Of a DNA stretch of 64,000 nt, positions 2,569-25,751 are shown in pieces. A program made the translations under genes and the position numbers. The notes under the pieces are model-generated. The model saw nothing but the letters and a program-made list of their open reading frames with translations. It had not been told where the DNA came from and searched no databases. The stretch is from an uncultured virus (IMG/VR IMGVR_UViG_3300049740_001611) (taxonomy: Duplodnaviria > Heunggongvirae > Uroviricota > Caudoviricetes). The stretch lies in IMG/VR virus record IMGVR_UViG_3300049740_001611. One strand, 5' to 3'. The number at the start of each line of letters is the position of its first letter. Position 1 is the stretch's first letter.

Positions 2569-5500
2569 ATGGCTGAGTTTAAATTAGGTAGAATTAGATT
2601 TGTTTGGAAAAACAATTGGGTAACTTCTACAACTTACTATGTCGATGACGTAGTTTTAGTAAACGGTAAAACATATCTATGTGTTACCGGACATACTTCT
2701 TTATCAGACTTTAACCTAGATTTAGGAACTAATAAATGGGAACTAATGACAGATGGTCAAAAATGGAGAAGTGACTGGCAAGCTAGTACACAGTATGAAT
2801 TAAATGACCTTGTAAAATATGGTTCAACTGTATATATTTGTACTACTGGGCACATGTCGCAAGCACTACTTGAAAGTGATCAATCTAAATGGGATACATT
2901 TGCTCAGCCATCCTTTGATTGGAAATCAAGTTGGGCTATCGACACTTATTACAAAGTTGGTGATTTAGTTAAGTACGGCGCTGGACTTTATCGTTGTATT
3001 ACTGGCCATACTAGTGCAGCTACTTTAGCCTTAGGCTTAGAAGCAAACGTTGTTAATTGGGATAGTTTAAATACAGGTTTTGATTATAAAAATAATTGGG
3101 CAACTGATACACGATATAAGTTAAATGACGTTGTTAAACGCGGCGGCGGACTGTGGTTGTGCCTACAAGGACACACTTCAGATTCAACAGCATTTGTAAC
3201 CGACGCAGCTTACTGGGTACAATTTGTAGAAGGTTTAGAATTTGAAGATACATGGAGTAACTCTACTGCTTACCAAAGAGGCGATATTGTAAACTATGGC
3301 GGCTATCAGTATGTTGCTGTAGAAAATCATACTGGCACAACTCCTACAACTACAGCACAAACAGATTGGGACGTGTTTTCAACAGGCTTTAAATTTATTG
3401 GAGATTATGACAATGCCGTTGCGTATAAAACGGGAGACGTTGTCCGCGTTGGTGGTTACACATACTTGTGTACAGCTGATAGTACTGGCAACCGTCCACC
3501 TAATGATACATATTGGAATCGCTTAAACCAAGGTCAAGAATGGAACGGTGATTGGACAGATGCAACATACTATGATGCTGGCGACCTGGTTAGATATGAT
3601 AACTCAAGTTATGTTTGTGTTGCAGAACACACAGCAGATGAAACAGTTACACAAAACAGACCAGACCAAGATTTAGTAGGTTCTTATTGGAACCAAATGG
3701 TAGGTGGTGCTGAAACTACAGTATTAACAACTGACGGAGATATTGTTTATTACTCCGGAGCAGGTCCTGCAAGATTACCACTTGGTACAGATGGTCAAGT
3801 ATTAAAAGTTAATGATTCAAACTTAGAATGGGCCGATTTTGGTATTATCAACAATGTATTTTATGTTGCTGATAATGGTACAGATAGTATTGATTATGGA
3901 TATACATTAGATAAACCTTTCAAAACTGTACGTTATGGTTTAGAAAGAATTGATATTGGACATAACAGTACTGGCGCACAAAAATTACTAGAACTTAATA
4001 GAAGTTTTATTGCTGCAGAAGCAACTGAGTGGGTAGATTGGCAAATTGCTAATGCTGCTGGCGGAAGTATTTGGGATGGATTTACTCAAGATGATAAAGT
4101 AAAATGTGCAAGAGACATTGGTCAAATTGTTGATGCACTTATTTGGGACTTAGGACACGGTGGCAATGCAAGAACTAGAGCTGCTACACTAACTTATTTT
4201 GATAGTGGTGCATTAATTGCTAGTATACAAGATGAATACCAACAATTATCAGCAACGTTAGACTACATGGAAGAAGTGGTCGATGCTGTTATTAGTAATG
4301 CAGCACCAGCAGCAAATTATCAAACACTAAACAGTGTTGGTAGTCCAATTACACAACAAATTGACGCAACATTGGTAGAATTACCTAGCGATCAACTCAC
4401 ACTAACTAGATTAATTAACATAATTACAGCAGCACTTGATGCAACAGTGCCTACAGATATTCCTGTAGAACTTAAACCTAATACTTCGTTGTTTGTTAAA
4501 ACAGGCGAGTTTAAAGAAGTACTTCCAATGATTGTTCCAGAAAGATGTGCAATTATAGGCGATGAGCTACGTTCAACTAGAATTGCACCGATGGGAGCTA
4601 TTACACCTTCGGGTGATGTATCATATAGCTTAGATGCAATATCAAGACTACAGGCTATTATGAGCGATATTGCAACAAACGGTTCAGTTACAAAAACATC
4701 TGGAAATGCAGAGACACAAGTAACAACAAGACCTTCAGGCGCAGCAGTAGCAGGCGCGGCGGCAGCAAACATAATGCAGCAAGTTTATGACTACATTGAT
4801 TACGGTATCAATGGTGCAACAGGAGATTCAACTGTTCCAGTTATTGCTGGTACAAACACTCCGCAAACTCATACTGATTATACTTTTGCTGTAGAATGTA
4901 TTGAAGCAAACAGAGCATTCTTAGTAGCAGAAGTCCACGCATATATTGCAGCAACATATCCTTCATATACATACGATATTGCTAAGTGTTCAAGAGATGT
5001 AAACAGATATTTAGATGCAGTAAAATACGATTTGATTTATACTGGTAACTATAAAGCATTATTAGCTGGTAGATACTATGTAAACGCTGTACTTGGATCA
5101 GTAGAAGAAGATATGTTCTATGTAAGAGACGCATCAGGTATTAGAAACTGTACAGTAACAGGCTTAACAGGCACATTGGGCAGTGATAATGCATACGGTA
5201 CTAAGCGTCCAAGTGCAGGAGCATATGTAAGTTTAGACGCAGGATGGGGTCCAGCAGATACTAGAGTTTGGATTGCAAGTAGATCTCCTTATATACAAAA
5301 CGTAACTTCTTTAGGAACAGCATGTATTGGTCTTAAAGTTGACGGAGCACTACACGACGGTGGAAATGATTCAATTGTTGCTAACGACTTTACACAAGTA
5401 TTAAGCGATGGCATTGGATATTGGGTTACAAACTTAGGTAGATCAGAACTTGTTAGTGTGTTTACATACTACAACCACATTGGCTACCTTGCAGAAAACG

Positions 5501-8016
5501 GCGGCAAGATTCGTGCTACCAACGGTAACAACTCATATGGTGCATTTGGATCAGTAGCAGAAGGTGTAGATGATACAGAAACTGCTGTAACTGCTACAGT
5601 AAACAACAGATATTACGAAGCACAAATTGGCAGAGTATATACTGATGCTACTGAAATATTAGCATTAGAATATAATAATGCAGGTACTAATTACACTACA
5701 GAAAATAATACATACACGTTTAGCGGTATTGGATATGATCAAGTATTAGTAGGTGATGAAATTAGAGATAACGGAATTTTTGAAGTTAGATTATTAACAG
5801 AAGGCGAAGATTACAGAGCTTCAGCTAACACTGCACAGGCAGGTACTACTTCACAAATTACATTAGCTGGTTCAGAAACTGCACCATCTTCAGCATATGT
5901 CGGAATGATGATATTCATTAAGACAGGTAACGGTGCTGGACAATATGGATATGTTGACACATACAATTCAGGAACAAAAGTTGCTACAATATTAAAACCA
6001 AGCACTGGTACAGCCGGCTGGGATCATTTGATTCCTGGAACAACTATTGTTGCTCCAAACGCAGTATCAACATACAGTGTTGAACCTAGAGTTGTTGTAG
6101 CTGCGCCAACCCAAACTATTACAGGAAATACAAACTATAGTAGTTCAAGAGCAGTTGATGACATTGCATATAACGGAAATGTTTTTGCAACGGTAACTGC
6201 TGGAAGCGCAGTTGTTGATACATCAACAGACGGAATAGCATGGTCAGCAGGAGGAGGAATCAGCACTAATAACCTAGGTAAGATTAAAGGCGGCAAAATA
6301 GGCGGAACTGCCTACTTTGCTGCAACTCATTCAGGAAATGTTTTTGCATTTTCAACAGATGACGGAGCATCTTGGGCAGGTTATGGACTTGGCGGAAATA
6401 CAGCAGATGTATTAGAAATAGCTAAAGATGTAATTGTTCATATCGATAATACTACAAGAGTAACAGGCGTATATGACGGTACAACCTATACTGTAGGCGG
6501 TTCAGTTGCTGGCAGCGATGCATTTTTAGATGTAGTGTATAGCTCAGCAGCAAATACATGGTTAGCAATAGCAGCAAATGGTGTAACTTCTTACTCGTTG
6601 AATGATGGTACAACATGGAGTGCAGGAGCACTTCCAACATTAGGTGCAGGAACATATAGTGCAATTGCATACGGTAATGGACGTTTTGTTGCAACAGCAA
6701 TTGGCACAGACGAAGCAGCTATTAGTTTTGACGGTGTTAACTGGACAGCAACAACTATGAGTTCAAGTGCAGACTGGAGTACAGTTAAGTACGGTCAAGG
6801 AACATTCCTAAGTGTTGCAAAAGACACCGGCGGAACTACAAAAGCAGCTACATCACCAGACGGAATTGTTTGGACAGCACAAGTTATGCCATCACAAAAC
6901 TTATGGCAAGCAGTCGGATACGGTACTGGCACTTGGGCATACGGTTGTGAAGATGCAAATGCAGTAGGCGCATCAAGTGGAAACTTTACACAAGCTATAC
7001 TAAGAGCAGCATCTGCAAGTGGAGCAATTTCTAATATTAGGGTTATTGAACCAGGTTCAGGATATGCAACACCACCAACAGTAACACTAACTGATCCAAG
7101 TAATACAGTAGACTCAACATGGACTGTTAGAGTAGGCGATGGCGCACTTGCACAACCTAGTTTCCAAAACAGAGGCGTTGACTGGGAAAGTGCAGATGGT
7201 TTTGTAACTGGCGACGGTTATGGAGATATCTATCAAAATGGTAAATTTGTAAACTTAGAAGGTTTAACAGAAATACCACAAGAAGGTGCTAACGTAACAT
7301 TTGCAGGAGATAGTAACTATTATAAACTTGTTAATGTAACAAACTTACTAGGTACAGGACCTTATACTGCTACACTTCAAGTGTCACCAGAAGTTACAAT
7401 TACAGATGCACCAGAACATGCTGTAGCAGCAGAAGTAAGAATACGTTATTCACAGGTGCGTTTAACAGGACACGATTTCTTAGATATCGGCACTGGTAAC
7501 TTTACAGATACTAACTATCCAGGTACTCCAAGTACAGCACCTGATGCAGCTGACGAAACAAAAGAAGGCGGCGGCGGCAGAGTGTTCTACACAAGTACTG
7601 ACCAAGACGGCAACTTTAGAGTTGGTGAACTGTTTAGTGTTGAACAGTCAACAGGTAAATCAACACTTAATGCTGATGCGTTTAACTTAGCAGGTCTACA
7701 AGAATTGCAACTTGGTGTTATTACACTAGGAAGCTCAAATACTGCTATTAACGAATTTAGCACAGACGGCACATTTGCTGCAAATAGCGATAGCATTGTG
7801 CCAACACAAAAAGCAATTAGAACTTACATCCAGTCACAAATTGGTGGCGGTGGCAGTAATCTAAATGTTAACAGTATACAAGCAGGTAATGTGAAAATAC
7901 AACTAAATACTATTAATCACGTAACTGATGGTACGATAAATATAACAAGCAGAGCGAATTTTACCGGTGGTATTTCTGGTAGTCCGTTAGCACTAAACTA
8001 CTTTTTACAGAGATAA
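2569..8016 (+). CDS. 1815-aa multidomain tail-fibre/virion protein: N-terminal CBM5/12-like repeats, two phycobiliprotein-like helical repeats, conserved core, Asp-box propeller
   Basis: SD GGAG upstream. About 8 repeats of W-x(3-5)-Y-x3-D-x-V-x-YG-x3-Y-x-C-x3-H-T-S; KCARDIG and KCSRDVN motifs; Asp-box motifs STDGIAW, STDDGASW, SLNDGTTW, SFDGVNW, SPDGIVW. Confidence 0.75.
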   Translation: MAEFKLGRIRFVWKNNWVTSTTYYVDDVVLVNGKTYLCVTGHTSLSDFNLDLGTNKWELMTDGQKWRSDWQASTQYELNDLVKYGSTVYICTTGHMSQALLESDQSKWDTFAQPSFDWKSSWAIDTYYKVGDLVKYGAGLYRCITGHTSAATLALGLEANVVNWDSLNTGFDYKNNWATDTRYKLNDVVKRGGGLWLCLQGHTSDSTAFVTDAAYWVQFVEGLEFEDTWSNSTAYQRGDIVNYGGYQYVAVENHTGTTPTTTAQTDWDVFSTGFKFIGDYDNAVAYKTGDVVRVGGYTYLCTADSTGNRPPNDTYWNRLNQGQEWNGDWTDATYYDAGDLVRYDNSSYVCVAEHTADETVTQNRPDQDLVGSYWNQMVGGAETTVLTTDGDIVYYSGAGPARLPLGTDGQVLKVNDSNLEWADFGIINNVFYVADNGTDSIDYGYTLDKPFKTVRYGLERIDIGHNSTGAQKLLELNRSFIAAEATEWVDWQIANAAGGSIWDGFTQDDKVKCARDIGQIVDALIWDLGHGGNARTRAATLTYFDSGALIASIQDEYQQLSATLDYMEEVVDAVISNAAPAANYQTLNSVGSPITQQIDATLVELPSDQLTLTRLINIITAALDATVPTDIPVELKPNTSLFVKTGEFKEVLPMIVPERCAIIGDELRSTRIAPMGAITPSGDVSYSLDAISRLQAIMSDIATNGSVTKTSGNAETQVTTRPSGAAVAGAAAANIMQQVYDYIDYGINGATGDSTVPVIAGTNTPQTHTDYTFAVECIEANRAFLVAEVHAYIAATYPSYTYDIAKCSRDVNRYLDAVKYDLIYTGNYKALLAGRYYVNAVLGSVEEDMFYVRDASGIRNCTVTGLTGTLGSDNAYGTKRPSAGAYVSLDAGWGPADTRVWIASRSPYIQNVTSLGTACIGLKVDGALHDGGNDSIVANDFTQVLSDGIGYWVTNLGRSELVSVFTYYNHIGYLAENGGKIRATNGNNSYGAFGSVAEGVDDTETAVTATVNNRYYEAQIGRVYTDATEILALEYNNAGTNYTTENNTYTFSGIGYDQVLVGDEIRDNGIFEVRLLTEGEDYRASANTAQAGTTSQITLAGSETAPSSAYVGMMIFIKTGNGAGQYGYVDTYNSGTKVATILKPSTGTAGWDHLIPGTTIVAPNAVSTYSVEPRVVVAAPTQTITGNTNYSSSRAVDDIAYNGNVFATVTAGSAVVDTSTDGIAWSAGGGISTNNLGKIKGGKIGGTAYFAATHSGNVFAFSTDDGASWAGYGLGGNTADVLEIAKDVIVHIDNTTRVTGVYDGTTYTVGGSVAGSDAFLDVVYSSAANTWLAIAANGVTSYSLNDGTTWSAGALPTLGAGTYSAIAYGNGRFVATAIGTDEAAISFDGVNWTATTMSSSADWSTVKYGQGTFLSVAKDTGGTTKAATSPDGIVWTAQVMPSQNLWQAVGYGTGTWAYGCEDANAVGASSGNFTQAILRAASASGAISNIRVIEPGSGYATPPTVTLTDPSNTVDSTWTVRVGDGALAQPSFQNRGVDWESADGFVTGDGYGDIYQNGKFVNLEGLTEIPQEGANVTFAGDSNYYKLVNVTNLLGTGPYTATLQVSPEVTITDAPEHAVAAEVRIRYSQVRLTGHDFLDIGTGNFTDTNYPGTPSTAPDAADETKEGGGGRVFYTSTDQDGNFRVGELFSVEQSTGKSTLNADAFNLAGLQELQLGVITLGSSNTAINEFSTDGTFAANSDSIVPTQKAIRTYIQSQIGGGGSNLNVNSIQAGNVKIQLNTINHVTDGTINITSRANFTGGISGSPLALNYFLQR

Positions 8017-8029
8017 TGGAGATTAAAAA

Positions 8030-8347: not shown

Positions 8348-8359
8348 GGAAATAATATT

Positions 8360-9871: not shown

Positions 9872-9883
9872 GGAGTAACATTA

Positions 9884-10585: not shown

Positions 10586-10599
10586 ATTAGCCACATTTA

Positions 10600-10658
10600 G
10601 CTTCCTAGCTAACAGACAACATATAATTAATTATATAACTAACTGTTAGCTAGGAAGC
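10600..10658 (+). promoter_or_regulatory. Long inverted repeat whose 3' arm contains the SD of the GT9-like gene, with promoter-like motifs in the loop
   Basis: GCTTCCTAGCTAACAG (10600-10615) and CTGTTAGCTAGGAAGC (10643-10658) are a perfect 16-bp inverted pair; inner palindrome ATATAATTAATTATAT (10621-10636); AGGAAG lies 7 nt before ATG 10665. Confidence 0.7.
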
Positions 10659-10664
10659 ATTTTC

Positions 10665-13426: not shown

Positions 13427-14015
13427 CATCTGTAAATGAACGTTGAGGGTAACTAATTGCACCAGTTCCTTCAACGTTTCCTACAACAATAATTCTTTCA
13501 TTATCGCTTTGATGTTGTTGTACTTGGTGTGATAACCAACCGGGAAAAATTATCCCATCCCCAGATTTAGGCTTATAATACATTCCGGGTTCGTGTGGGA
13601 AATGAAGCGGAGCAGCATCGTCGTCTACTTTTACATAATACACCCAACTATACAAAGCAGGCACATGCGCATGTAGTTCACTGTAGTCTCCTCGATTATA
13701 TATTGATCCCCAACATGTTGTCATAAATGTTTTTAAATCTAGGTCACTTTTTTCTTTGTGCCATTGCTGTATTAAAGATTCGACATGATCGCAAATATAT
13801 TTAAATGGCTTGTGATCGGTCATAAGCCAATCGGTCATTATAGTAGCCTTTACATTTGTTTCTTTATTTCTAGCATCGCCTACTTCTTTAATAACACGCT
13901 CTACATCATTGTGTAATTCTTCTACAGAGTACTCGTCGGTATCCTCAAAACTAAACTCCCAAAAATGTATTGGAACGCTAAGCCATTGGATAGATTCTCT
14001 AAAATTTTTATCCAT
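13416..14015 (-). CDS. Putative 2OG-Fe(II) oxygenase (TIGR02466-like)
   Basis: HAH-x5-SWVYYV, IIFPGWLSHQV and terminal RIIVVGN: HxH...H metal triad plus 2OG-binding Arg. Confidence 0.8.
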   Translation of the reverse strand: MDKNFRESIQWLSVPIHFWEFSFEDTDEYSVEELHNDVERVIKEVGDARNKETNVKATIMTDWLMTDHKPFKYICDHVESLIQQWHKEKSDLDLKTFMTTCWGSIYNRGDYSELHAHVPALYSWVYYVKVDDDAAPLHFPHEPGMYYKPKSGDGIIFPGWLSHQVQQHQSDNERIIVVGNVEGTGAISYPQRSFTDVNL

Positions 14016-14023
14016 TATGTTTC

Positions 14024-14599
14024 CTAAATATTAAACGTAAAACTTTTACGAGGATTATCGTTTGTTTTTGTATACACCTCATGTTCTAACCAGTGATCCC
14101 ATATCAACATCATTCCTTGTCGCGGCGGAATAGTAACAACAGGATTAGTACAGTATTTACTAGATTCAAATTTAGTATACGGTCTAGGATCATGAAATAC
14201 TAAAGGAGGAACATTATCGCCTACTTCTAAATATATAATTCCACTAAATTTACAATCCAAATGTGCATGTCTACGTAAATGTCCATTGTTTTTCATATCA
14301 CTAAAAAACCCAAACGGGTGTTGCATATCTTCTTCAAAATATGGTTGGTTTCTTTGATTTAAAAAATCTTGTATAGATTCTTTAATAAGTTTAAATGTTT
14401 CAATAACTATAGGAATATTATTAATAACATTTGACTCATCAGGTGCCGAGTGTAATGTACTATTCCAACCTTCTATATTCAGTAAATGATCTTCACCTAC
14501 ATCTGTCAACACGCTATTACATGCGTCTAACAACTCGAGTCGCATTGTATCAGCAATCTGTATATTGTATACGGTAGTTGGAAATAAACTGTGTATCAT
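14024..14599 (-). CDS. Putative 2OG-Fe(II) oxygenase (TIGR02466-like)
   Basis: Starts LFPT; HAHLDCKFSGIIYL, FHDPRP, WLEHEV, RKSFTFNI. Confidence 0.82.
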   Translation of the reverse strand: MIHSLFPTTVYNIQIADTMRLELLDACNSVLTDVGEDHLLNIEGWNSTLHSAPDESNVINNIPIVIETFKLIKESIQDFLNQRNQPYFEEDMQHPFGFFSDMKNNGHLRRHAHLDCKFSGIIYLEVGDNVPPLVFHDPRPYTKFESSKYCTNPVVTIPPRQGMMLIWDHWLEHEVYTKTNDNPRKSFTFNI

Positions 14600-17462: not shown

Positions 17463-20400
17463 ATGGCAAAAACACAAGTAAAAAACTATAAATTTACCCC
17501 AGGATTAGGTTCAGAAGGAAATCTGTACCCGAATGCATATGCTCTACTAAATGCTAATAAAGCATTTTTGCAAGCAGAAAGCACAGCATACATTAATAAA
17601 GAAATTGCTGACACGGCTAAATGTAAAAGAGATATTGGTCTTATAATTGAAGGTACAGCATTTGATGTTGCATTTGGATCAAACTATAATGCTTTATTTT
17701 TAGGAAGAGCAGAAAGTTATTCAATTGACAATTCAGAAACTGTTTTTAGAACAATTGATAGAGCATTAAATCATATGTTATTGATACCTCAAGTTGCTGT
17801 TGATTCAACAGCAAAAGCTAGGGTTAAAGATACAATTAATGAAATTAAAAACAATATGCGAACAGGTGCATATAGCGCACTATCGCTTCCTAATCCAACT
17901 AATGCAACAGCAAGTAGAATTTCTGCAAAAGATAGACTTTTAGCTAACGAAACATTTTTAAGAGATGAAGTTTTAGCATGGACGATTGTAAATTATCCTT
18001 CATACGATATTAATCAATCATACGGACTAACAAAAGGATCGTGTGATGTAAAGTATGCAATACGAGCTGCAGCATACGATATACTATATGGTGGTAATTC
18101 AGCAAGTTTTGATGTTGCAAAATTATTTCCAAACTCAGCTGATCCAGCAGTAGGATTAACTGGCGATCATCAAGACGCAGTAGTTGCGGGTTATGGTAGA
18201 TTAAAAACAATTATTGCTGAAGTAGCAACAGGTGCTGCTGTAACAGTTAGTGCCGGGAACAGTACAGCGCAAGTAACATCAGGTACAAATGCTTCTGCAT
18301 CAGAGGGAACAACATTAACTGGATTAATTGATATTACATCAGATGTTATTGAAACAGGAGTAGCAACTTTAGATGCATTAACTAGAACAACCGGTAGTAT
18401 TGGATGGACTTCTAATGTAATACAACAAGCAAAAAATTCTATAGTTAATAATAAATCTAAAATTGTTAGCGAAGTAACATGGGAAACTGGATACACATAT
18501 AATCAAGCAAAGTGTGAAAGAGATGTAGGTTATATTATTGATTCTTATTTGCACGATATCCGTTATGGCGGCAATCAAAGCATTACTAAATCAATAAGTT
18601 ACTATTGGGATCAAGGTGTTGCACAAGTTGACGGAAATAGAATACCAGAAATTGACACACATGCATTTTTGCAAGATTTAATTAGAGATTATATCCTTTA
18701 TAACGCACCGTGGAATGCGCAAAATCAAGTAGGTGTAACACAAACTATAGATACATCGACTCCGGCAGAAACAACACATTATACGCCTACTGATGCTACA
18801 TATACGCCTTCAACAGGCATTATGACTTTAGAGATTGGTACGCACACGCTTCAAGCTGATGATAAAATTATTATTAGACCGGATGGAATAACGTTTACTT
18901 GTGCATTAGACAGTAATGCTACATTACATCCTTATCCACGCAGAGCAGGCGTTCCTAATGCATTACAGCGCGATCCATATTTTAATAAACCAATTACTAT
19001 TACTGGTGTCACTGCAACATCTATTACAATGAATGTAGGTATAAGTTCTGATACTTCATTACATACATTTTCAAGTGCTATAACAGGAGCAGTGATTGCT
19101 GGCGCAAGTATGCGAGCTGTAACGCTTTCACAAAACACTGTTGATGTTCTTACTAACGGAATTACTAGCCTTCCTACAGCAGAAACAACAGGTTTAGGCA
19201 ATATCAAAATCCAAGGAAGATATACTTCAGACGAATTACTGCTTGTCACTAACACATCCAAAAATGAAATAATTTATAATTTTAGTGACCCCGAAGCCGG
19301 TGCAGAATGTGTTATTAAAGATCACGGCGCAGACGAAGATTTTCCAAAGTATCTACAGACAACTGATGCTGTAACTACTATTAATTTAACATACAACACA
19401 ACTACACATTCATCAACTGACGATCTACAAATTTTTGTAGAAAAAATGGAAAATGGAAAAAGTGTAGTAACGCAACGACCATATGATTTTGGAACAGACG
19501 CAATTGAACGTATGCGTATTGCTCCTCCATTAAGTATGCTTGATGCTGACTTTGAGTACGGTTTACAGCCTACTAAATGGTCTGCAATTTCTATGATGCG
19601 TGGATATCCAAGTGTATACGAAATTCCAGGAACAGATACACAGGTATTAAGTGTTGAAACTGATGCAAGTGACGGAACAGATGGTATTGGTGCTTCATTA
19701 ATTACAGTTACAACAGTATCAGCACACGGATTTGAAGTAGGTACACCTATTACAATTAAAGCTCTTGAAACATCTATTGCAGGCGCAGCACGAGCTGAAG
19801 GTTCGTTTGTTATTATTAGTGTACCAACTAATTTAAGTTTCCAGTACTATGCTAAATCAAAAGTAGGAACAGCAGATGGTGAGCAATTAGCAGCCGGTTA
19901 TACTCAACTAAGAAAAGGTGGTTTTTATACCGGAGCAGGAATTGACGGCGCAGAATTTGATGTATTAAGTAACGGTTCTTCGGGTGCAATGGTGTCTGAG
20001 CTAATAGTCCAAACCGGAGCAAATACTATTCCGTTTGACGGTAATTCACCTGAAGTTGGCTCACCTTTAATAAGTCCTCTTATTCCAGTAGGTTCACAGG
20101 TTACTAATATTATTGATAACAGTGCAGGCGGCGGCGAGTACTTAACATTAAATATTGGATCCAATGCTAATATTGGAGATACAGATATACAATTATTTGA
20201 TGCAACCGGTGTTGTTCCAAACCTAGCATTAGATAGAGGCGACGGTGTAGCAACATTTATTAACAATGTTGTAGGAAGTACAGTTTCATTAAGCAGTGGA
20301 TTAACTTCATCACTTGTATCAAATACAAAAACATATCCAATATTAACTCCAACAACAGTTCAGCCTGCTGGTTCCGGCGCACTGCTTAATATACAAAGAT

Positions 20401-23400
20401 CCGGCGGATCCTATTCTCTATCAGCAATTGACCTAGCAGGTCTTAATTATGAAGTAGGTGATAAATTTCTAATAGACGGTACTCAACTTGGCGGCGTAAC
20501 TGCCACTAATGATATGTTTGGTACAGTTGCTAGTATTACAGCGACTGGCGGCATTGCAACAGTAACACTTACAGGTACGGCAGTTGCAGGTACAGAAAAT
20601 TATACTGGTATTGCGGCACCATTAGCTGGAGGCATTGGTATTAATCCGCCCCAGTTTAATGTAACTATGGCTAATAACGCATTTACAAGCGTTGGTGTTG
20701 AAGGATCACCGCCAAATGTTTCAGAAGACTTCGTAGTTAACGATAGATTATTAATATCAGGTGATCAGTTTCCAGGAGGCACAAGTCCTGCTAACGATTT
20801 AATTATAAAAGTTACAGGAATCCAAACTGCTGTCTCTGGCGAAACCGGAAATATTAATACTGTAGTAATTGAGAGCGGCACTGCTCCAAACGCAGATGTG
20901 TTATTTCCTAATGTAAGTTTTACAACGTCTAGTGCTGGAACCACTGCTGAAGTAGATGTTAGAATGCAAGGCACGTCTTATGCTGTGATTGTTACAGTAC
21001 CGGGCACTGGATATAGTATCGGTGATACACTGCTAGTATCAGGTACAAATTTAAACGGCGCATCTCCTACAAACGATGCAACAATTACAATTGATAACGT
21101 TGGTGGCAGTGGAGATATTACAGCTGCAAGCATATCAGGTACCGCAACTAACCAACAGATTGTTACACCACTAACAGGAACAATCCTTGCAGGTACTGGA
21201 GCATTGTTTGACATTGCTCTTACTCCTAATAACTATGCAGTTACACTTAACGTTGGCGGATTAAACTTCTTTGTAGATCAAGAACTTAAAATATTAGGTA
21301 CAGAACTACAAGGTCAAACACCAGCAAATGACATTACTATTACAATAACAAGTGTAAGTGGTACTGGCGCAATCACAGGATTTAGTAGTGCAGGTACAGC
21401 AACAAGTGGAACAGAAACTTATTTAGGTTTATTACTAACAAATGTTAATAGACCGGGTTCTGGTGCAGAATTTAGTGTTCAGCGAATAAACGGTGGCTAC
21501 CAAGAAATAGACGGCGACGGCGGAACACAATATGAAATAGGTGATGTATTAACACTTAATGGTAGTGATATGGACGGTGTAAATGGCGACAATGATATTA
21601 CTATCACAGTTACAGGTGTCGATACACTTAACAATAATGCATTAACAACATTTACAACAACACAACAGCCGGCAAATCCAGGCACACAAGTTCCGTTAAT
21701 ATCAACATTTACAATGACAGAAGCAACAACAGGACAGATGGCTGCAAATACAGCAATTACGTTTAGTGCTATTGCAACATTAGAAGTTACATTCCCTGCT
21801 GCACACGGACTTGTGCCAGGTGATACGTTTATTACAGCAACATCGACAGATGACGGAACAAACAATCATGATCTTGCAGACGGAGCATTCCTTGTTACTA
21901 ATATTCCGGCAATAGATAAACTAAGATATACTGCTAGAGCAGCAGGAACAATTACAACAGATGCTGCTACTGATCCGATCAATGGCGTACTATATGCAAG
22001 GCCAGACAGCTTCTTTGTTCATAGACCATTTGATGGCGGTGTGCAGTTAGGAACAGGCGGTCCACAGCATGGCGCACAAGCAATACGTCAAAGTAAAAAA
22101 TATATTCGTTACCAATCAGGTAAGGGTATTATGTATACAACTGGTGCGCTATTTGCTCCAAGTTACGATCTTTCAACTATATCAGCAGCTGGAACAGAAC
22201 TTAATTCGTTAATTACTATTACAACAGATGATAACGATCACGGCGTACAAGCAGGCGGCATAATTAGATTGTTAGGTGTAGAAACACCGGGATATAATTC
22301 AGGAGTTAATCCGGAAGTACCTCCAGGATTTGATTACACAGTTGAAGAAGTATTAAGTGAACGTTCATTTACAGTTAGATCAAAACGCAGATTAGGCGAC
22401 ACTACAGAAATTGTTTTAAACTCGCCGACTAATACGTCACCACTAGTTGTTGCATTTGATGAAGCAGCAAGTGGAACTAACACTCATGACATACACAACT
22501 TCTTTATCAACGAGACTGCACCAGATGGATATGCGTGGGGCGATATTAACAACTCAGGAAGCTTCACTGTAGATGATACTACTGATCTTATAAATTATTT
22601 AGACGGTGTTTCACAAGCTGAATCGTTATCTACAAGAATTGCAGATACTCTTGCAGAACTTAAGAAAAGAAGAAATACAGCCGTAGTTGAAGATACTATT
22701 GGAGCATTTAAACAAGAAGCCAACATTGGTTTTGGCGCACAAATGAGTGTTGTTGCATGGCACGGCGCAACTGTACGTTCAGGCATCTTTGATGATCAAA
22801 ACGGCATTTTTTGGGAATTCGACGGTACTAACGTTAGTGTTAATCAACGTACTGGTACTCAGCAGGTAGCTGGAACTATTGCAATTGAAGTTGACGGGAA
22901 TCTAGTAACAGGAACAAACACAAGATTCCGCGATCAGTTAACAGCAGGTGATAGAGTTATTATCAAAGGTATGACACACGTGGTAACAAATGTTACTAGC
23001 CAAACATCTTGTACTGTTACGCCTGACTTTAGAGGTGTAACTCCTGCTACTGGTGCAAAAATGAATCTAGTTATTGATAAGAAAGTTAAGTCAGCTGACT
23101 TTAATCTAGACACATTGGATGGCAATGGTCCTAGTGGATACGACATTGATATTGCTAAAATGCAAATGATTGGTATTCAATACAGTTGGTATGGTGCTGG
23201 ATTTATTGACTTTATGCTTCGCGGACAAGATGGTAACTTTATATTCTGTCACAGAATGCGTAACTCAAACGTAAACACAGAAGCATTTATGCGTTCAGGT
23301 AACTTGCCTGTGCGTTATGAAGTTACTAACGAAGGACCTCCGGGTAAACTAGCAGCAGATTTGGATGCAAGTGCAACTACTTTAGAACTAGTGGACGGAA

Positions 23401-24773
23401 GTTTCTTCCCAGAATACGGCACTGTTTATATTGATAATGAAATTATTACGTTTAGTGGACGTTCTTCAAATCATCTAACTGGTTTAACAAGAGGAACAAC
23501 ATTAACTAACTTCCAAGCAGGCGCCGAACGTACTTATAGCGCAGGCGGAGCTGTCCCACATGATGCAAGAACTGGCGTAATATTAATTAGTAATACAATT
23601 ACTCCTTTAATTAGTCACTGGGGTTCGGCGTTCTTAACAGACGGCGGATTTGATGAAGATAGAGGATATATCTTCTCATATGCAGAACCAGGAATTGATG
23701 TTAGTACAACTAAACAAACAGCGTTTATGATTAGACTAGCACCCAGTGTTTCAAACGCAATTATTGGAGACTTAGGTGAAAGAGAACTACTAAACAGAGC
23801 ACAATTGTTGCTACAAGGTCTTGAAGTTACATCAGACGGTGTTGATACTGGAAATAGTAATGCACCAATAACTGGCGGTATTGTTGTTGAAGGTGTACTT
23901 AACCCACAAAACTATCCAATCAATCCAAACGATGTTGGTTGGACAACATTGAGCGGTGTTGCGCAAGGTGGTCAGCCTAGCTTTGCACAAGTTGCTGCTG
24001 GTGGTTCTGTTGTATGGTCAACAGGCGAGGCTGCTACTACAGCAACAGCTACAGCACTTGGTAGTGTAGTGGCTACTATGAATAATGATGATTATCCAAC
24101 TTGGAGGAGGAATACTACACTATATTACTCTACAAGCATGTATGAAGCTAACGGACCAATTGTTGTTGGATCAACAGTAACAGGCACTAATATTAGATCT
24201 GATACTACTGTTACTAGTGTTAACGTGTACACTAGCTATGTTGCAATAAGAATAAGCCGAGGCGTGAGCAACACCATTGATAATCAACAGCAGACATTTA
24301 CGTTTAATGAATCACTTGTAGGCAGAAACTATGCATATCTTAGTAAATCAGAAATTGATACTGCAGGAGTTAAGCAAGGTACAAATCTAAGTAACGGCGG
24401 CTCAGTAACTTTCCCTGCTAACACACAGGTTAACAGTGTAACTGCTAAACAACACGGATCTACTCAATTTTATGAAGTACAGTTTAACAATTCGTTTAGT
24501 GGAACACTAACAGCAGGTAGTGGTACAGTAGAATTTACATTCGTTCAACCACCCTATGCACAACCAGGTGAAACTGTGTTCTCCTTTATTGCAACACCAG
24601 GAGAACGTGCAACTGTTGACTTTAGTGAATTGAAAGAGCTTACAAATACTACGCTAGGTGGACGAGGAACATTCCCAAATGGTCCAGACGTACTTGCTAT
24701 TAATGTGTATAAAGTGGGCGGTACAAATGTTGAAGCTAACTTGATTCTTAAATGGGGTGAAGCGCAAGCCTAA
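17463..24773 (+). CDS. Giant virion structural protein (2436 aa) with three N-terminal phycobiliprotein-like repeats, tandem beta repeats and a dockerin-like motif
   Basis: Uninterrupted ORF. KCKRDIG, KGSCDVK and KCERDVG motifs; about 5 repeats of G-x-x-[YF]-x-[VI]-[GD]-D-x-L-x-I-x-G-x-x-L-x-G-x-x-P-x-ND-x-x-I-x-V; WGDINNSGSFTVDDTTDLINYL. Confidence 0.75.
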   Translation: MAKTQVKNYKFTPGLGSEGNLYPNAYALLNANKAFLQAESTAYINKEIADTAKCKRDIGLIIEGTAFDVAFGSNYNALFLGRAESYSIDNSETVFRTIDRALNHMLLIPQVAVDSTAKARVKDTINEIKNNMRTGAYSALSLPNPTNATASRISAKDRLLANETFLRDEVLAWTIVNYPSYDINQSYGLTKGSCDVKYAIRAAAYDILYGGNSASFDVAKLFPNSADPAVGLTGDHQDAVVAGYGRLKTIIAEVATGAAVTVSAGNSTAQVTSGTNASASEGTTLTGLIDITSDVIETGVATLDALTRTTGSIGWTSNVIQQAKNSIVNNKSKIVSEVTWETGYTYNQAKCERDVGYIIDSYLHDIRYGGNQSITKSISYYWDQGVAQVDGNRIPEIDTHAFLQDLIRDYILYNAPWNAQNQVGVTQTIDTSTPAETTHYTPTDATYTPSTGIMTLEIGTHTLQADDKIIIRPDGITFTCALDSNATLHPYPRRAGVPNALQRDPYFNKPITITGVTATSITMNVGISSDTSLHTFSSAITGAVIAGASMRAVTLSQNTVDVLTNGITSLPTAETTGLGNIKIQGRYTSDELLLVTNTSKNEIIYNFSDPEAGAECVIKDHGADEDFPKYLQTTDAVTTINLTYNTTTHSSTDDLQIFVEKMENGKSVVTQRPYDFGTDAIERMRIAPPLSMLDADFEYGLQPTKWSAISMMRGYPSVYEIPGTDTQVLSVETDASDGTDGIGASLITVTTVSAHGFEVGTPITIKALETSIAGAARAEGSFVIISVPTNLSFQYYAKSKVGTADGEQLAAGYTQLRKGGFYTGAGIDGAEFDVLSNGSSGAMVSELIVQTGANTIPFDGNSPEVGSPLISPLIPVGSQVTNIIDNSAGGGEYLTLNIGSNANIGDTDIQLFDATGVVPNLALDRGDGVATFINNVVGSTVSLSSGLTSSLVSNTKTYPILTPTTVQPAGSGALLNIQRSGGSYSLSAIDLAGLNYEVGDKFLIDGTQLGGVTATNDMFGTVASITATGGIATVTLTGTAVAGTENYTGIAAPLAGGIGINPPQFNVTMANNAFTSVGVEGSPPNVSEDFVVNDRLLISGDQFPGGTSPANDLIIKVTGIQTAVSGETGNINTVVIESGTAPNADVLFPNVSFTTSSAGTTAEVDVRMQGTSYAVIVTVPGTGYSIGDTLLVSGTNLNGASPTNDATITIDNVGGSGDITAASISGTATNQQIVTPLTGTILAGTGALFDIALTPNNYAVTLNVGGLNFFVDQELKILGTELQGQTPANDITITITSVSGTGAITGFSSAGTATSGTETYLGLLLTNVNRPGSGAEFSVQRINGGYQEIDGDGGTQYEIGDVLTLNGSDMDGVNGDNDITITVTGVDTLNNNALTTFTTTQQPANPGTQVPLISTFTMTEATTGQMAANTAITFSAIATLEVTFPAAHGLVPGDTFITATSTDDGTNNHDLADGAFLVTNIPAIDKLRYTARAAGTITTDAATDPINGVLYARPDSFFVHRPFDGGVQLGTGGPQHGAQAIRQSKKYIRYQSGKGIMYTTGALFAPSYDLSTISAAGTELNSLITITTDDNDHGVQAGGIIRLLGVETPGYNSGVNPEVPPGFDYTVEEVLSERSFTVRSKRRLGDTTEIVLNSPTNTSPLVVAFDEAASGTNTHDIHNFFINETAPDGYAWGDINNSGSFTVDDTTDLINYLDGVSQAESLSTRIADTLAELKKRRNTAVVEDTIGAFKQEANIGFGAQMSVVAWHGATVRSGIFDDQNGIFWEFDGTNVSVNQRTGTQQVAGTIAIEVDGNLVTGTNTRFRDQLTAGDRVIIKGMTHVVTNVTSQTSCTVTPDFRGVTPATGAKMNLVIDKKVKSADFNLDTLDGNGPSGYDIDIAKMQMIGIQYSWYGAGFIDFMLRGQDGNFIFCHRMRNSNVNTEAFMRSGNLPVRYEVTNEGPPGKLAADLDASATTLELVDGSFFPEYGTVYIDNEIITFSGRSSNHLTGLTRGTTLTNFQAGAERTYSAGGAVPHDARTGVILISNTITPLISHWGSAFLTDGGFDEDRGYIFSYAEPGIDVSTTKQTAFMIRLAPSVSNAIIGDLGERELLNRAQLLLQGLEVTSDGVDTGNSNAPITGGIVVEGVLNPQNYPINPNDVGWTTLSGVAQGGQPSFAQVAAGGSVVWSTGEAATTATATALGSVVATMNNDDYPTWRRNTTLYYSTSMYEANGPIVVGSTVTGTNIRSDTTVTSVNVYTSYVAIRISRGVSNTIDNQQQTFTFNESLVGRNYAYLSKSEIDTAGVKQGTNLSNGGSVTFPANTQVNSVTAKQHGSTQFYEVQFNNSFSGTLTAGSGTVEFTFVQPPYAQPGETVFSFIATPGERATVDFSELKELTNTTLGGRGTFPNGPDVLAINVYKVGGTNVEANLILKWGEAQA

Positions 24774-25369
24774 AGGGCTTGTGCAACGTCCCAAAGACTA
24801 TCAAATATTCGAGTTTTCTTTTTAAGTTTGTTATAAGTAAAACGAGTATTAAGCAATTTTTCAGTTTCTAATCCATGTCCGGTACGCACTAGTATAGGCT
24901 TTGCGCCTATTTTATCTGCTGCTTTTAGATCGCTAAGTTTGTCGCCAATATATATGCCTTTAGAAAATTTTATATTAGGTATTTCATCTTGGGCACGTTC
25001 AAACATTCCTATGTTTGGCTTAGCATAGAAATCTTGTTTTAAACTACTAGAGCTATAATATAGTCCGTCAATACTTGGGCATCCTGCTTTTCCTAAAAGA
25101 TCAAACATGTGTTTATGAATATCATTTAGCTGTGTTTCTGTAACAATGCCTTTTTGTATACCACCTTGATTTGTAATAATTACAATTGGGTGACCCTTAG
25201 ATCGTATTAGTGCTACCGCTTCTAAACTTTTTTCTATAGGAATAAAATCGTTAACACTAGTAACATATGTTCCAATATCTTTATTAATTACGCCGTCGCG
25301 ATCAAGACCAACAACATATTTGTTATATCTATTTAACTGTTGTGTACTAGCTTTTTGGAACCGGCTCAT
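24770..25369 (-). CDS. gmhB: D-glycero-D-manno-heptose 1,7-bisphosphate phosphatase (HAD family)
   Basis: LDRDGVIN, ITNQGGI, KPNIGM, IGDKLSD, LVRTGHG. Start taken at ATG 25369 (MSRFQK). Confidence 0.88.
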   Translation of the reverse strand: MSRFQKASTQQLNRYNKYVVGLDRDGVINKDIGTYVTSVNDFIPIEKSLEAVALIRSKGHPIVIITNQGGIQKGIVTETQLNDIHKHMFDLLGKAGCPSIDGLYYSSSSLKQDFYAKPNIGMFERAQDEIPNIKFSKGIYIGDKLSDLKAADKIGAKPILVRTGHGLETEKLLNTRFTYNKLKKKTRIFDSLWDVAQAL

Positions 25370-25751
25370 TGTTTTCTCTTTGACTGTCACCTGGGGCAAC
25401 TCGGTAATTATCTTCAACACTATCAGGTGTGCTTACTTCTGTAATACTACTTCCTGATGTAATAGCAATTAGTTGGTGCGGCTGCAATGGAGGATTATGC
25501 CATGTATCACCTGCTTTAAGCTCTTGCTCGTTCCATTTAGCAGTTTTAGTGTCAATCCATTTTACTAAAAATCTACCGTTATTTACAAACCAAGTTTCGT
25601 CTTTTTCTTGATGAAAATGCATACTAAATTGAGCGCCTGCTTTTTGAAACACCATAAGTTTTCCGCAATACTTGTCATTAGTTGCCCAAATTAATTCGTA
25701 GCCCCAACCTTTTTCTACAACACCGTTTAACCGAGTAGTTTCACTTTCCAT
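25347..25751 (-). CDS. Cupin-fold sugar isomerase-like protein
   Basis: KGWGYELIW, FSMHFHQEKDETW, PPLQPHQL, EVSTPDSVEDNYRV. Confidence 0.75.
   Translation of the reverse strand: MESETTRLNGVVEKGWGYELIWATNDKYCGKLMVFQKAGAQFSMHFHQEKDETWFVNNGRFLVKWIDTKTAKWNEQELKAGDTWHNPPLQPHQLIAITSGSSITEVSTPDSVEDNYRVAPGDSQRENNEPVPKS

What the first reader, a model, noticed from the sequence alone, without database searches (positions are those of the whole stretch)
17520..18720. Three more phycobiliprotein-like repeats at the N-terminus of the 2436-aa virion protein, one with a shifted Cys
Seen: KCKRDIGLIIEGTAFDVAFGSN (17619-17684), KGSCDVKYAIRAAAYDILYGGN (18033-18098) and KCERDVGYIIDSYLHDIRYGGN (18510-18575). 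They are preceded by LNANKAFLQAE, LLANETFLRDE...NYPSY and IVNNKSKIVSEV. KCKRDI resembles the phycoerythrin alpha chromophore site as I recall it. In repeat 2 the Cys has moved two positions and replaces the Arg while the Asp is kept. The same module therefore occurs five times in two otherwise different giant virion proteins, which points to a mobile domain under selection at C-x-R-D.
Basis: partly seen in the sequence, partly recalled or inferred. Interest (0 to 1): 0.85.

Follow-up and report, generated by a model that had tools for sequence, protein, structure and literature searches.

The report
Phycobiliprotein-fold repeats in phage fibre proteins
Two giant fibre-type virion proteins of an uncultured large aquatic phage contain copies of a helical domain distantly related to the pigment-carrying antenna proteins of cyanobacteria, and the copies still keep the pigment-attachment residues, so phage particles might carry light-absorbing pigments, though this is untested.

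Summary
The three 22-residue strings lie exactly where stated, and two more lie in the 1815-aa fibre protein upstream. They mark 110-160-aa helical modules, not bare motifs.

The phycobiliprotein (PBP) reading holds on four independent tests:
- 7 of 8 giant relatives pass Pfam's PF00502 cut-off.
- A profile of 81 modules hits PDB phycocyanin alpha chains at E 1.8e-6, with the phage Cys on Cys-84.
- hhalign against 10 host PBPs gives E 2.6e-6 over 101 columns.
- AlphaFold models superpose on PBPs: Z 15.6 at 2.3 A over 138 residues for module 2, and Z 9.3 for module 3.

Across 1859 modules in 121 relatives, the C-x-R-D triad is intact in 97.3%. Two thirds of all cysteines in these proteins are this one.

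The "shifted Cys" is not supported. That position reads C, L or T among orthologues, so module 2 is a decayed copy.

The phage is not a classical cyanomyovirus. Its core genes resemble those of PA5oct-like jumbo phages, its host is unknown, and no bilin genes were found.

Bilin binding is plausible (about 0.3) but untested. My literature searches found no description of this.

The parts
17463..24773 (+). P0001, a 2436-aa giant virion structural protein. It has three PBP-fold modules at the N-terminus, followed by beta-rich repeats and a conserved C-terminal part.
   Evidence: ORF list and translation. phrog_5838 'virion structural protein' at E 5e-236, and phrog_701. No Pfam family at E<=0.01.
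17472..17876 (+). Module 1 (aa 4-138), the short type with a G-S-N-Y-N tail. Its C-x-R-D site is intact.
   Evidence: HMM envelope. i-E 9e-23 with a model that excludes the window. Predicted helices 25-31, 33-46, 51-71, 75-82, 92-106, 115-134.
17619..17684 (+). Motif 1: K-C-K-R-D-I-G...F-G-S-N (Cys54, Arg56, Asp57).
   Evidence: K-C-x-R-D is invariant at this module in 14 of 14 orthologues.
17868..18338 (+). Module 2 (aa 136-292), the long type with a G-G-N-S-A-S tail. It gives the best PBP-like model. Its site is degenerate.
   Evidence: i-E 1e-26. Model residues 148-297 superpose on PBP beta residues 34-172, Z 13.5-15.6, rmsd 2.2-3.0 A.
18033..18098 (+). Motif 2: K-G-S-C-D-V-K...Y-G-G-N. Cys is replaced by Gly and Arg by Cys, while Asp is kept. 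This is a decayed site.
   Evidence: The position holding this Cys reads C/L/T among orthologues. Three orthologues and L102 keep K-C-[ST]-R-D.
18381..18806 (+). Module 3 (aa 307-448). Its C-x-R-D site is intact. This is the ancestral N-terminal module, present in all orthologues.
   Evidence: i-E 2e-36. K-C-E-R-D is invariant in 11 of 11 aligned orthologues. In the single-module model, the top 7 of 48,161 chains are PBP or ApcE, Z 9.3-8.1.
18510..18575 (+). Motif 3: K-C-E-R-D-V-G-Y...Y-G-G-N (Cys351, Arg353, Asp354).
2569..8016 (+). P0002, a 1815-aa tail-fibre-type protein. It has six CBM_5_12 repeats, then two PBP-fold modules flanking a partial one, then a beta-helix-like part.
   Evidence: CBM_5_12 at E 2e-30 in 6 stretches. 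phrog_9851 'tail fiber protein' at E 7e-192.
3958..4347 (+). P0002 module A (aa 464-593). Motif K-C-A-R-D-I-G at 4102-4167.
   Evidence: i-E 1e-27. The first seven motif residues equal those of the host-type CpcA chain read.
4612..4791 (+). Partial module (aa 682-741). Only the C-terminal half of the profile matches (positions 100-159).
   Evidence: i-E 1e-4 to 2e-4. Weak.
4831..5298 (+). P0002 module B (aa 755-910). Motif K-C-S-R-D-V at 4984-5049.
   Evidence: i-E 7e-28.

Best explanation
The repeats are domains of the phycobiliprotein / bilin-binding-globin superfamily, recruited as serial building blocks of phage fibre and baseplate-associated virion proteins.

Shown:
- Each module is a helical, globin-like domain of about 110-160 aa. 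Its central helix carries K-C-x-R-D...D-[LIV]-x-Y-G-G-N, aligned residue for residue with the Cys-84 / Arg-86 / Asp-87 chromophore site of phycocyanin alpha.
- The same module is strung 3 to 37 times in giant proteins of aquatic myoviruses.
- The window's P0001 carries one ancestral module (module 3) plus a pair (modules 1 and 2) gained by a sub-lineage.
- Module 2 has since lost Cys and Arg.

Inferred:
- The modules form the proximal, bead-like shaft of the fibre.
- The conserved triad marks a working pocket rather than a fossil. It stays intact while the rest of the domain has drifted to about 16% column identity. Cys and Arg are usually lost together. These proteins are otherwise Cys-poor.

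My commitment: the single most likely ligand is a linear tetrapyrrole (bilin) thioether-linked to the Cys during assembly in the host. Attachment could be self-catalysed or lyase-assisted. I give this about 0.3. A ligand-free scaffold (0.35) and other Cys chemistry (0.15) share most of the rest.

The confidence given below (0.8) is for the homology, fold and building-block part only.
For: Sequence evidence:
- 35 of the 120 listed relatives carry a precomputed PF00502 hit (my count).
- On rescanning, 7 of 8 pass the 22.2-bit cut-off at 29-50 bits, covering profile positions 33-152 of 155.
- A profile of 15 window and orthologue modules against PDB sequences gave 36 hits at E<=10. Of these, 35 are PBP chains, the best at 0.0023.
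- A profile of 81 diverse modules gave 39 hits at E<=1. Of these, 38 are PBPs and 30 are below 1e-3. The best is 6jpr_A at 1.8e-6, aligned to residues 29-103 including Cys-84.
- hhalign against 10 PBPs of a Synechococcus genome: probability 88.6%, E 2.6e-6, 101 columns, module 21-126 on PBP 34-147.

Fold evidence:
- AF2 of aa 1-446: pLDDT 74.5, pTM 0.71, all helical.
- VIA second look at that model: 49 of the top 50 entries are PBPs and one is a 'bacterial fluorescent protein'. Z is 13.5-15.6, and 105 chains have Z>=8.
- Module 3 alone against 48,161 representative chains: the top 7 are all PBP or ApcE.

Site evidence:
- The C-R-D triad is intact in 1809 of 1859 HMM-defined modules.
- Of the 50 exceptions, 36 lose C and R together.
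- Where C is lost, it is replaced by Y, F or W in 29 of 43 cases.
- 1809 of 2709 cysteines (67%) in 121 relatives sit in C-x-R-D.

Literature (passages read): C-X-R-D is the PBP bilin-attachment motif, and CXRD-bearing BBAG globins attach bilins without lyases (PMC10151467).
Against: - The window's own proteins give no PF00502 hit even at E<=10.
- Single-sequence phmmer against PDB finds no PBP.
- Foldseek E-values are not significant, with the best at 0.14 for module 3 and 0.43 for the first PBP row of the whole model.
- Z 9.3 for module 3 lies inside the range the tool warns is common for helical bundles.
- The AF2 models have middling confidence, and the first rests on only 14 sequences.
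- hhalign probability is 88.6%, not above 95%.
- The profile alignments start at PBP residue 29-34, so the N-terminal X-Y hairpin is not matched.

Against the bilin part specifically:
- No haem oxygenase, bilin reductase, CpeT or reaction-centre family was found in the 56 window ORFs scanned, in the nearest held record, or in 5 large module-bearing viral records, one of them 93% complete.
- Core genes of the window phage and of 3 of those records resemble jumbo phages of heterotrophs.
- Two further near-invariant residues (Asp at motif position 16, Asn at 22) are absent from PBPs.
- I recall no report of pigmented phage particles, and my searches found none.
Confidence: 0.8

Rival explanations
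1. Ligand-free scaffold. The PBP-like fold was borrowed only as a compact helical bead for building long fibres. On this view C, R and D (with the extra Asp and Asn) are kept because they hold the helices together or mediate contacts between chains, and no chromophore is bound.
For: The modules occur in shaft-like tandem arrays of up to 37 copies. Two additional near-invariant residues not found in PBPs (Asp16 in 1846 of 1860, Asn22 in 1567 of 1858) suggest a phage-specific structural network. No bilin genes were found in the window or in 5 large module-bearing records. Modules 1 and 3 are shorter than a PBP core. Module 2 works without the site in a whole sub-lineage.
Against: A buried structural Cys is normally replaceable, yet it is kept in 1816 of 1859 modules while the rest of the domain averages about 16% column identity. 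In PBPs these three residues are described only as chromophore contacts (PMC10151467, passages read). Joint loss of C and R (36 of 50 exceptions) looks like the loss of one functional unit.
Confidence: 0.35
2. Other cysteine chemistry. The conserved Cys makes inter-chain or inter-module disulfides, a thioester-type cross-link or a metal site, hardening the fibre in oxidising water.
For: These are extracellular proteins with one conserved Cys per module. The language-model look-up for module 2 listed thioester-domain clusters at 0.90 (below the tool's recognition level, so only a lead).
Against: Only about 275 other cysteines lie inside 1924 module envelopes (2084 minus 1809), so disulfides within a module are excluded for most modules. 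No thioester-domain Pfam hit was found at E<=10. The atlas hit concerns the module that lacks the canonical Cys. Nothing in this idea explains why Arg and Asp at the PBP positions are kept.
Confidence: 0.15
3. No common ancestry. A helical hairpin converged by chance on a C-x-R-D-like string.
For: Sequence similarity is concentrated in about 70-100 residues. The window's own modules fail Pfam. Foldseek E-values are weak.
Against: Four independent lines agree on the same family and the same register: Pfam on relatives, a profile against PDB, profile against profile, and two fold searches. The match includes the upstream helix and loop, not just the motif.
Confidence: 0.04

Closest known systems
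Phycocyanin alpha subunit (CpcA) and the phycobiliprotein family, Pfam PF00502
   Same: Globin-like helical core. K-C-x-R-D on the central helix, followed about 15 residues later by G-G. An upstream helix and an aromatic-Pro loop align as well. P0002 module A shares K-C-A-R-D-I-G with the CpcA-type chain read from a Synechococcus genome.
   Different: The phage modules are not free 160-180-aa subunits. They are 3-37 tandem modules inside proteins of 1,800-6,400 aa. No X-Y N-terminal hairpin is matched. Extra invariant Asp and Asn are present. The window copies fall below Pfam's cut-off. They occur in virion proteins, not in an antenna. Bilin attachment is unknown.
Bilin-binding (PB) domain of the phycobilisome core-membrane linker ApcE
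   Same: A PBP-fold domain embedded in a very large multidomain protein. It is among the top structural matches of module 3 (4xxi_A Z 9.0; 7eyd_19, 7sc7_BD, 9wg7_N2).
   Different: ApcE has one PB domain followed by linker REP domains, whereas the phage proteins repeat the PBP-like domain itself. That ApcE attaches its bilin without a lyase is my recollection and comes from no call.
BBAGs, bilin biosynthesis-associated globins (Rockwell, Martin and Lagarias 2023, PMC10151467)
   Same: They are PBP paralogues outside the antenna. Some carry C-X-R-D. They bind bilins without lyases, and they occur in non-photosynthetic bacteria (passages read). This shows that the fold plus C-X-R-D can bind bilin outside cyanobacteria.
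   Different: BBAGs are single-domain cellular proteins encoded beside haem oxygenase and pre-PcyA genes. No such neighbours occur here. I did not place the phage modules on a tree with BBAGs.
Giant 'structural', 'tail fiber-like', 'short tail fiber' and 'baseplate wedge' proteins of Synechococcus and Prochlorococcus myoviruses (e.g. S-ShM2, S-PM2, S-CAM1, S-WAM2, S-H9-1)
   Same: They carry the same module by tblastn and by predicted structure. A module-only query hits 391 phage records. Of these, 379 are named Synechococcus, Cyanophage or Prochlorococcus, 12 are uncultured marine viruses, and none is an isolate from a heterotroph.
   Different: The records I saw annotate them only generically. 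None of the annotations or papers I searched names a phycobiliprotein-like domain. The window's phage has a different core-gene backbone.

Membership tests
Phycobiliprotein family (Pfam PF00502, Phycobilisome protein) | Score above Pfam's gathering cut-off (22.2 bits) | tested here: not met
   P0001, P0002 and their module pieces give no PF00502 row even at E<=10. Of 8 giant relatives, 7 do pass at 29-50 bits. So the superfamily link is transitive and not direct for the window's copies.
Phycobiliprotein family (Pfam PF00502, Phycobilisome protein) | Globin-like helical core superposable on solved PBPs | tested here: met
   Module 2: Z 13.5-15.6, rmsd 2.2-3.0 A over 122-152 residues, with 49 of the top 50 entries being PBPs. 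Module 3: the top 7 of 48,161 chains are PBP or ApcE, Z 9.3-8.1. These are predicted models at pLDDT about 75.
Phycobiliprotein family (Pfam PF00502, Phycobilisome protein) | C-x-R-D chromophore motif on helix E, in register with Cys-84 | tested here: met
   Met for modules 1 and 3 of P0001 and for both full modules of P0002. Not met for module 2, which reads K-G-S-C-D.
Phycobiliprotein family (Pfam PF00502, Phycobilisome protein) | N-terminal X-Y helical hairpin used for alpha-beta pairing | tested here: inconclusive
   The profile alignments begin at PBP residues 29-34. Some structural alignments extend over helices of the preceding module (model 64-297 on chain 4-177), but mostly at rmsd 5-8 A.
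Phycobiliprotein family (Pfam PF00502, Phycobilisome protein) | Covalently bound bilin | not testable with these tools
   No coordinates or bilin ligand were available to me. This needs spectroscopy or mass spectrometry.
Phycobiliprotein family (Pfam PF00502, Phycobilisome protein) | Free subunit of about 160-180 aa that assembles into (alpha-beta)3 rings | tested here: not met
   The modules are internal parts of proteins of 1815 and 2436 aa here, and up to 6382 aa elsewhere.
BBAG (bilin biosynthesis-associated globins) | Encoded beside haem oxygenase and a pre-PcyA-type bilin reductase | tested here: not met
   No Heme_oxygenase or Fe_bilin_red family was found among the 56 window ORFs scanned against Pfam. 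None was found in the nearest held record or in 5 large module-bearing records. Those records are partly incomplete.
BBAG (bilin biosynthesis-associated globins) | Lyase-independent bilin attachment | not testable with these tools
   This is an experimental property (PMC10151467, passages read).
Phage fibre / baseplate-associated virion proteins (PHROG 5838, 701, 9851) | Significant match to families annotated as virion structural or tail-fibre proteins, and a place in a tail-gene neighbourhood | tested here: met
   phrog_5838 at E 5e-236 and phrog_701 at E 2e-24 (covering aa 316-568, which includes module 3) for P0001. phrog_9851 at E 7e-192 for P0002. Neighbours include a baseplate-wedge/fibre connector, sheath, tube and sheath stabiliser. 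Presence in virions of this phage is not shown.

The most novel reading that the evidence does not exclude
The fibres of these phages, including the common marine cyanomyoviruses that carry up to dozens of the modules, may be biliproteins. On this reading, bilins from the infected cell are thioether-linked to the module cysteines during assembly, so the free virion carries tens to hundreds of chromophores. That would make the particle itself light-responsive or light-protected. It would also give a direct substrate for the unexplained phage cpeT, pebS, pcyA and ho1 genes, and a candidate basis for the light-dependent adsorption reported for several cyanomyoviruses. Standard virion proteomics would have missed it, because trypsin cuts after the Lys and after the Arg and so frees the Cys as a tripeptide.
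Probability: 0.3. Interest if true: 0.95.

Novelty: new variant of a known kind. Interest (0 to 1): 0.8.

Why it matters
Phycobiliproteins and their BBAG paralogues are known as small cellular bilin carriers. Here the same fold, with the attachment triad intact in 97% of copies, is the repeating unit of giant virion proteins.

- **Abundance:** the family has 1720 representative clusters. It is present in 379 named cyanophage records, so it concerns some of the most abundant viruses in the sea.
- **Open questions it could address:** reviews state that the benefit of phage bilin-synthesis genes is unclear for Prochlorococcus phages (PMC2984593, passages). They state that the role of phage cpeT is unresolved; it is present in 12 of 16 genomes (PMC3037559, passages). 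They also report that adsorption of several cyanomyoviruses depends on light (PMC2984593).
- **Testability:** a bilin-binding fibre would tie these together, and it can be tested with a spectrophotometer and a zinc blot.
- **If no pigment is bound:** the finding still gives a fold and a domain boundary map for a large class of unannotated phage giant proteins. It also warns that PF00502 hits in viromes need not be antenna genes.

Tried and rejected
- **Pfam on the window's own modules:** nothing at E<=10.
- **phmmer against PDB sequences:** P0001 aa 1-446, P0009 and P0002 gave no PBP. The only hits were cyanovirin at 0.23 and carbohydrate-binding repeats.
- **Foldseek against PDB:** no row at E<=0.001 for either model. 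The PBP signal came from TM-score and probability values and from VIA-align.
- **The search for related loci on genome contigs with alignment A3:** the tool said there was no stretch conserved enough. I then used a degenerate DNA pattern. It gave 18 loci, all on metagenome-assembled contigs. Two of them, at 70% G+C, look like chance matches. So there is no evidence for a cellular, chromosomal copy.
- **Own genome:** not held. The nearest record is a 19% fragment, so absence of bilin genes from this phage cannot be concluded.
- **Complex prediction:** The oligomer state is untested.
- **ESM Atlas:** thioester-domain clusters for module 2 (0.90) and generic phage tail families for module 3 (0.93). 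Both are below the tool's recognition level, so I treated them as noise.
- **Earlier scan notes:** nothing relevant.
- **My first label, 'T4-like cyanomyovirus':** withdrawn.
- **A relocated functional Cys in module 2:** rejected.
- **Disulfides within a module:** rejected on cysteine counts.
- **Literature:** six searches found no paper describing a PBP-like domain in phage virion proteins. Subscription journals and supplements were not covered.
Full report
**1. The observation**

The ORF 17463..24773 (+) encodes 2436 aa. The three 22-residue strings lie exactly at the stated coordinates:
- 17619-17684, reading K-C-K-R-D-I-G...
- 18033-18098, reading K-G-S-C-D-V-K...
- 18510-18575, reading K-C-E-R-D-V-G...

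The upstream 1815-aa ORF 2569..8016 holds two more copies, at aa 512 and aa 806.

I built an HMM from 76 modules of other loci, with the window's rows removed. It finds the three P0001 modules at i-E 9e-23, 1e-26 and 2e-36. It finds the two P0002 modules at 1e-27 and 7e-28, plus a partial one at 2e-4. It finds nothing in the other 206 of 208 six-frame segments. So the repeats are real, and they are modules of about 135-157 aligned residues.

**2. The family**

A search with aa 1-446 found 1072 proteins at E<=0.001 among 7998 scored candidates. All were giants of 1,339-4,263 aa, which was the length band searched.

A motif-agnostic HMM finds 3 to 24 modules in each of the 121 relatives held, 1924 instances in all. 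Against 1.84 billion representative proteins the module profile hits 1720 at E<=1e-3, 1370 at <=1e-10 and 772 at <=1e-30. One 6382-aa protein has up to 37 modules. Spacing between motifs peaks at 100-119 aa and at 130-169 aa, so there is a short and a long module type.

**3. Likeness to phycobiliproteins by sequence**

- 35 of the 120 listed relatives carry a precomputed PF00502 hit (my count).
- On rescanning, 7 of 8 pass Pfam's 22.2-bit cut-off at 29-50 bits over profile positions 33-152 of 155. One fails at 18.9 bits.
- The window's own proteins give no PF00502 row even at E<=10.
- Single-sequence phmmer against PDB finds no PBP.
- A profile of 15 window and orthologue modules gave 36 PDB hits at E<=10. 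Of these, 35 are PBP chains and the best is at 0.0023.
- A profile of 81 diverse modules gave 39 hits at E<=1. Of these, 38 are PBPs and 30 are below 1e-3. The best is phycocyanin alpha 6jpr_A at 1.8e-6. The alignment runs over residues 29-103 and puts the phage Cys on Cys-84.
- I fetched ten PBP genes from a Synechococcus genome. hhalign of modules against them gave probability 88.6%, E 2.6e-6 and 101 columns, with module 21-126 on PBP 34-147.
- In that genome the CpcA-type chain reads K-C-A-R-D-I-G, as does P0002 module A. An alpha-type phycoerythrin chain reads K-C-K-R-D, as does module 1.

**4. Likeness by predicted fold**

AlphaFold2 of aa 1-446 used 14 sequences. It gave pLDDT 74.5 and pTM 0.71, and the model is all helical.

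Foldseek against PDB gave nothing at E<=0.001. The first PBP row was rank 50, with probability 1.00 and TM 0.61 on the target.

VIA-align on Foldseek's top 999 chains gave 105 with Z>=8. Of the top 50 entries, 49 are PBPs and one is a 'bacterial fluorescent protein'. Z is 13.5-15.6 and rmsd 2.2-3.0 A over 122-152 residues. Model residues 148-297 (module 2) align on PBP beta residues 34-172.

Module 3 was folded alone with 81 sequences (pLDDT 75.6). I compared it with 48,161 representative chains without Foldseek. The top 7 are all PBP or ApcE, at Z 9.3-8.1. Next come photocobilins at 7.7, and then colicins and RsbR-type globins. The tool warns that Z below about 13 is common for helical bundles. 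Module 3's score is therefore supportive only, while module 2's is above that range.

**5. The site**

- In 1859 HMM-defined modules that cover the site, C-R-D is intact in 1809 (97.3%). Individually, C is kept in 1816 of 1859, R in 1816 of 1860 and D in 1845 of 1860.
- Two further positions not conserved in PBPs are also near-invariant: Asp at motif position 16 (1846 of 1860) and Asn at position 22 (1567 of 1858).
- Of the 50 exceptions, 36 lose C and R together, 7 lose only C and 7 lose only R.
- A lost Cys is replaced by Tyr, Phe or Trp in 29 of 43 cases.
- The proteins are Cys-poor (0.65% of residues). 1809 of their 2709 cysteines (67%) are the motif Cys.
- Mean column identity of the 81-module alignment is 16%.

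Together this looks like a functional pocket, not a fossil.

**6. Module 2 and the 'shifted Cys'**

Eight orthologues from viral contigs have only one N-terminal module. It equals module 3, and K-C-E-R-D is invariant in 11 of 11 aligned sequences. Modules 1 and 2 are an insertion shared by the window's sub-lineage.

Among 14 three-module orthologues, modules 1 and 3 keep K-C-x-R-D in all 14. Module 2 varies:
- K-C-[ST]-R-D in 3 orthologues, and also in locus L102.
- x-G-[SA]-C-D in 4.
- x-G-[SV]-L-D in 6.
- K-G-S-T-D in 1, and also in loci L002 and L004.

**7. Who carries the module**

- A module-only query (2963 aa from L077) hit 391 of 50,697 phage records. Of these, 379 are named Synechococcus, Cyanophage or Prochlorococcus, 12 are uncultured marine viruses, and none is an isolate from a heterotroph (similar).
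- BFVD gave 15 structural matches at E<=1e-3. The named ones are Synechococcus phage structural or tail proteins.
- The window's phage, however, is not a classical cyanomyovirus. Its terminase is 54% identical to the Pseudomonas PA5oct group. Its sheath is 43-49% identical to Phosso, Atu_ph07 and PA5oct. The nearest held record is a 67-kb piece rated 19% complete.
- Three of five large module-bearing viral records have capsid proteins 67-76% identical to the same jumbo-phage group.
- None of the five has a reaction-centre, CpeT, bilin-reductase or haem-oxygenase match.
- None of the 56 window ORFs scanned has such a match either.
- In contrast, the window's carbamoyltransferase is 60% identical to that of Synechococcus phages Sf-FS3 and S-SSM7.
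- The host is unknown.
- In genome collections the module appears only on low-GC contigs of metagenome-assembled genomes from many phyla. I read these as binned phage contigs.

**8. Mechanism**

Shown: PBP-superfamily modules are strung along fibre-type virion proteins, and the bilin-attachment triad is under strong constraint.

Inferred: the modules form the proximal shaft, and the triad marks a working pocket.

Rockwell et al. state that C-X-R-D is the PBP chromophore motif: Cys makes the covalent link, and Arg and Asp hydrogen-bond the bilin. They also state that CXRD-bearing BBAGs bind bilins without lyases (PMC10151467, passages read). On that basis the most likely single ligand is a bilin, at about 0.3. 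A ligand-free scaffold (0.35), other Cys chemistry (0.15) and other possibilities remain.

Three published points would fit:
- The benefit of phage bilin genes in Prochlorococcus phages is 'unclear', and adsorption of several cyanomyoviruses is light-dependent (PMC2984593, passages).
- cpeT occurs in 12 of 16 cyanomyovirus genomes with its role 'unresolved' (PMC3037559, passages).
- T-type lyases are common in T4-like cyanophage clusters A and B (PMC10665884, passages).

Against this stands the lack of bilin genes in the module-bearing jumbo-type records. Published counts are also low across sequenced cyanophages: CpeT 31, PcyA 16, PebS 9 and HO 8 of 153 (PMC10452541, table passage). In addition, T-type lyases serve Cys-153 rather than Cys-84 (same review).

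A practical point follows from the sequence. Trypsin cuts after the Lys and after the Arg of K-C-x-R, so the Cys ends up on a tripeptide. Ordinary virion proteomics would not see an adduct there.

**9. Novelty**

Six full-text searches found no paper that describes a PBP-like domain in phage virion proteins. A preprint on AlphaFold modelling of freshwater cyanophage proteins does not mention phycobiliproteins or globins. Subscription journals and supplements were not searched. The PF00502 hits exist silently in precomputed annotations.

I file this as a new variant of a known kind: the PBP / bilin-binding-globin superfamily in a new architecture and setting.

**10. Limits**

- I had no atomic coordinates, so no pocket analysis was possible.
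- The oligomer state is untested.
- The models have middling confidence.
- The phage genome is incomplete and its host is unknown.
- No phylogeny was built to place the modules relative to PBP alpha, PBP beta or BBAG sequences.

Noticed in passing
window 41290-42870, 32557-35916, 11591-13426: The phage is a mosaic. Its large terminase (54%) and tail sheath (43-49%) are closest to jumbo phages of heterotrophs (PA5oct group, Phosso, Atu_ph07). Its carbamoyltransferase is 60% identical to that of Synechococcus phages Sf-FS3 and S-SSM7. This may be an uncultured jumbo phage that shares an accessory and fibre gene pool with cyanomyoviruses. The host is unknown.
   Followed up: partly
window 2569-3800 (P0002 aa 1-400): Six CBM_5_12 carbohydrate-binding repeats (E 2e-30) sit at the N-terminus of the 1815-aa fibre protein, ahead of the PBP-fold modules. 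A beta-helix-like stretch follows module B.
   Followed up: partly
window about 20340-21960 (P0001 aa about 960-1500): Five tandem repeats of about 95 aa share G-D-x-[LF]-x-[ILV]-x-G-x-x-L-x-G-x-x-P-x-N-D-x-x-I-T-[VI]. I saw this by eye in the translation. There is no Pfam match.
   Followed up: no
window about 22380-22710 (P0001 aa about 1640-1750): A stretch of about 110 aa is absent from the orthologue consensus. It contains a calcium-loop or dockerin-like D-x-N-x-S-G-x-x-x-x-D-D string. No Pfam hit at E<=0.01. The resemblance is my impression only.
   Followed up: no
window 25741-27695, 50573-53034, 59080-60699: Sugar-nucleotide and LPS-type genes are scattered among tail and replication genes. 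They include an epimerase, a PfkB kinase plus cytidylyltransferase (HldE-like), a mannose-6-P isomerase plus cytidylyltransferase, a glycosyltransferase-8-like protein, a KdsA-like DAHP_synth_1 and a KdsB-like CTP_transf_3.
   Followed up: no
window 13416-14599 (minus strand); 25347-25751 and 61806-62159: There are two adjacent 2OG-Fe(II) oxygenase genes and two small cupins (PHROG name 'cysteine dioxygenase'). A peptide deformylase lies at 62163-62660. This accessory set is typical of marine cyanophages.
   Followed up: no
window 38403-38840: A 145-aa ORF matches both a PHROG 'head closure' family (E 2e-44) and Pfam's TnsA-like endonuclease N-terminal domain (E 2e-24). The two names conflict.
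   Followed up: no
L077 (viral contig of 331,570 bases, rated 93% complete), locus positions 5520-14408: One ORF carries at least 11 intact C-x-R-D modules and lies just downstream of the gp23-type capsid gene. The record has no reaction-centre, CpeT, bilin-reductase or haem-oxygenase match.
   Followed up: partly
modules of giant relatives: In the 43 modules that have lost the Cys, the replacement is Tyr, Phe or Trp in 29 and Gly in 11. The aromatic replacements look like side chains filling a pocket.
   Followed up: no
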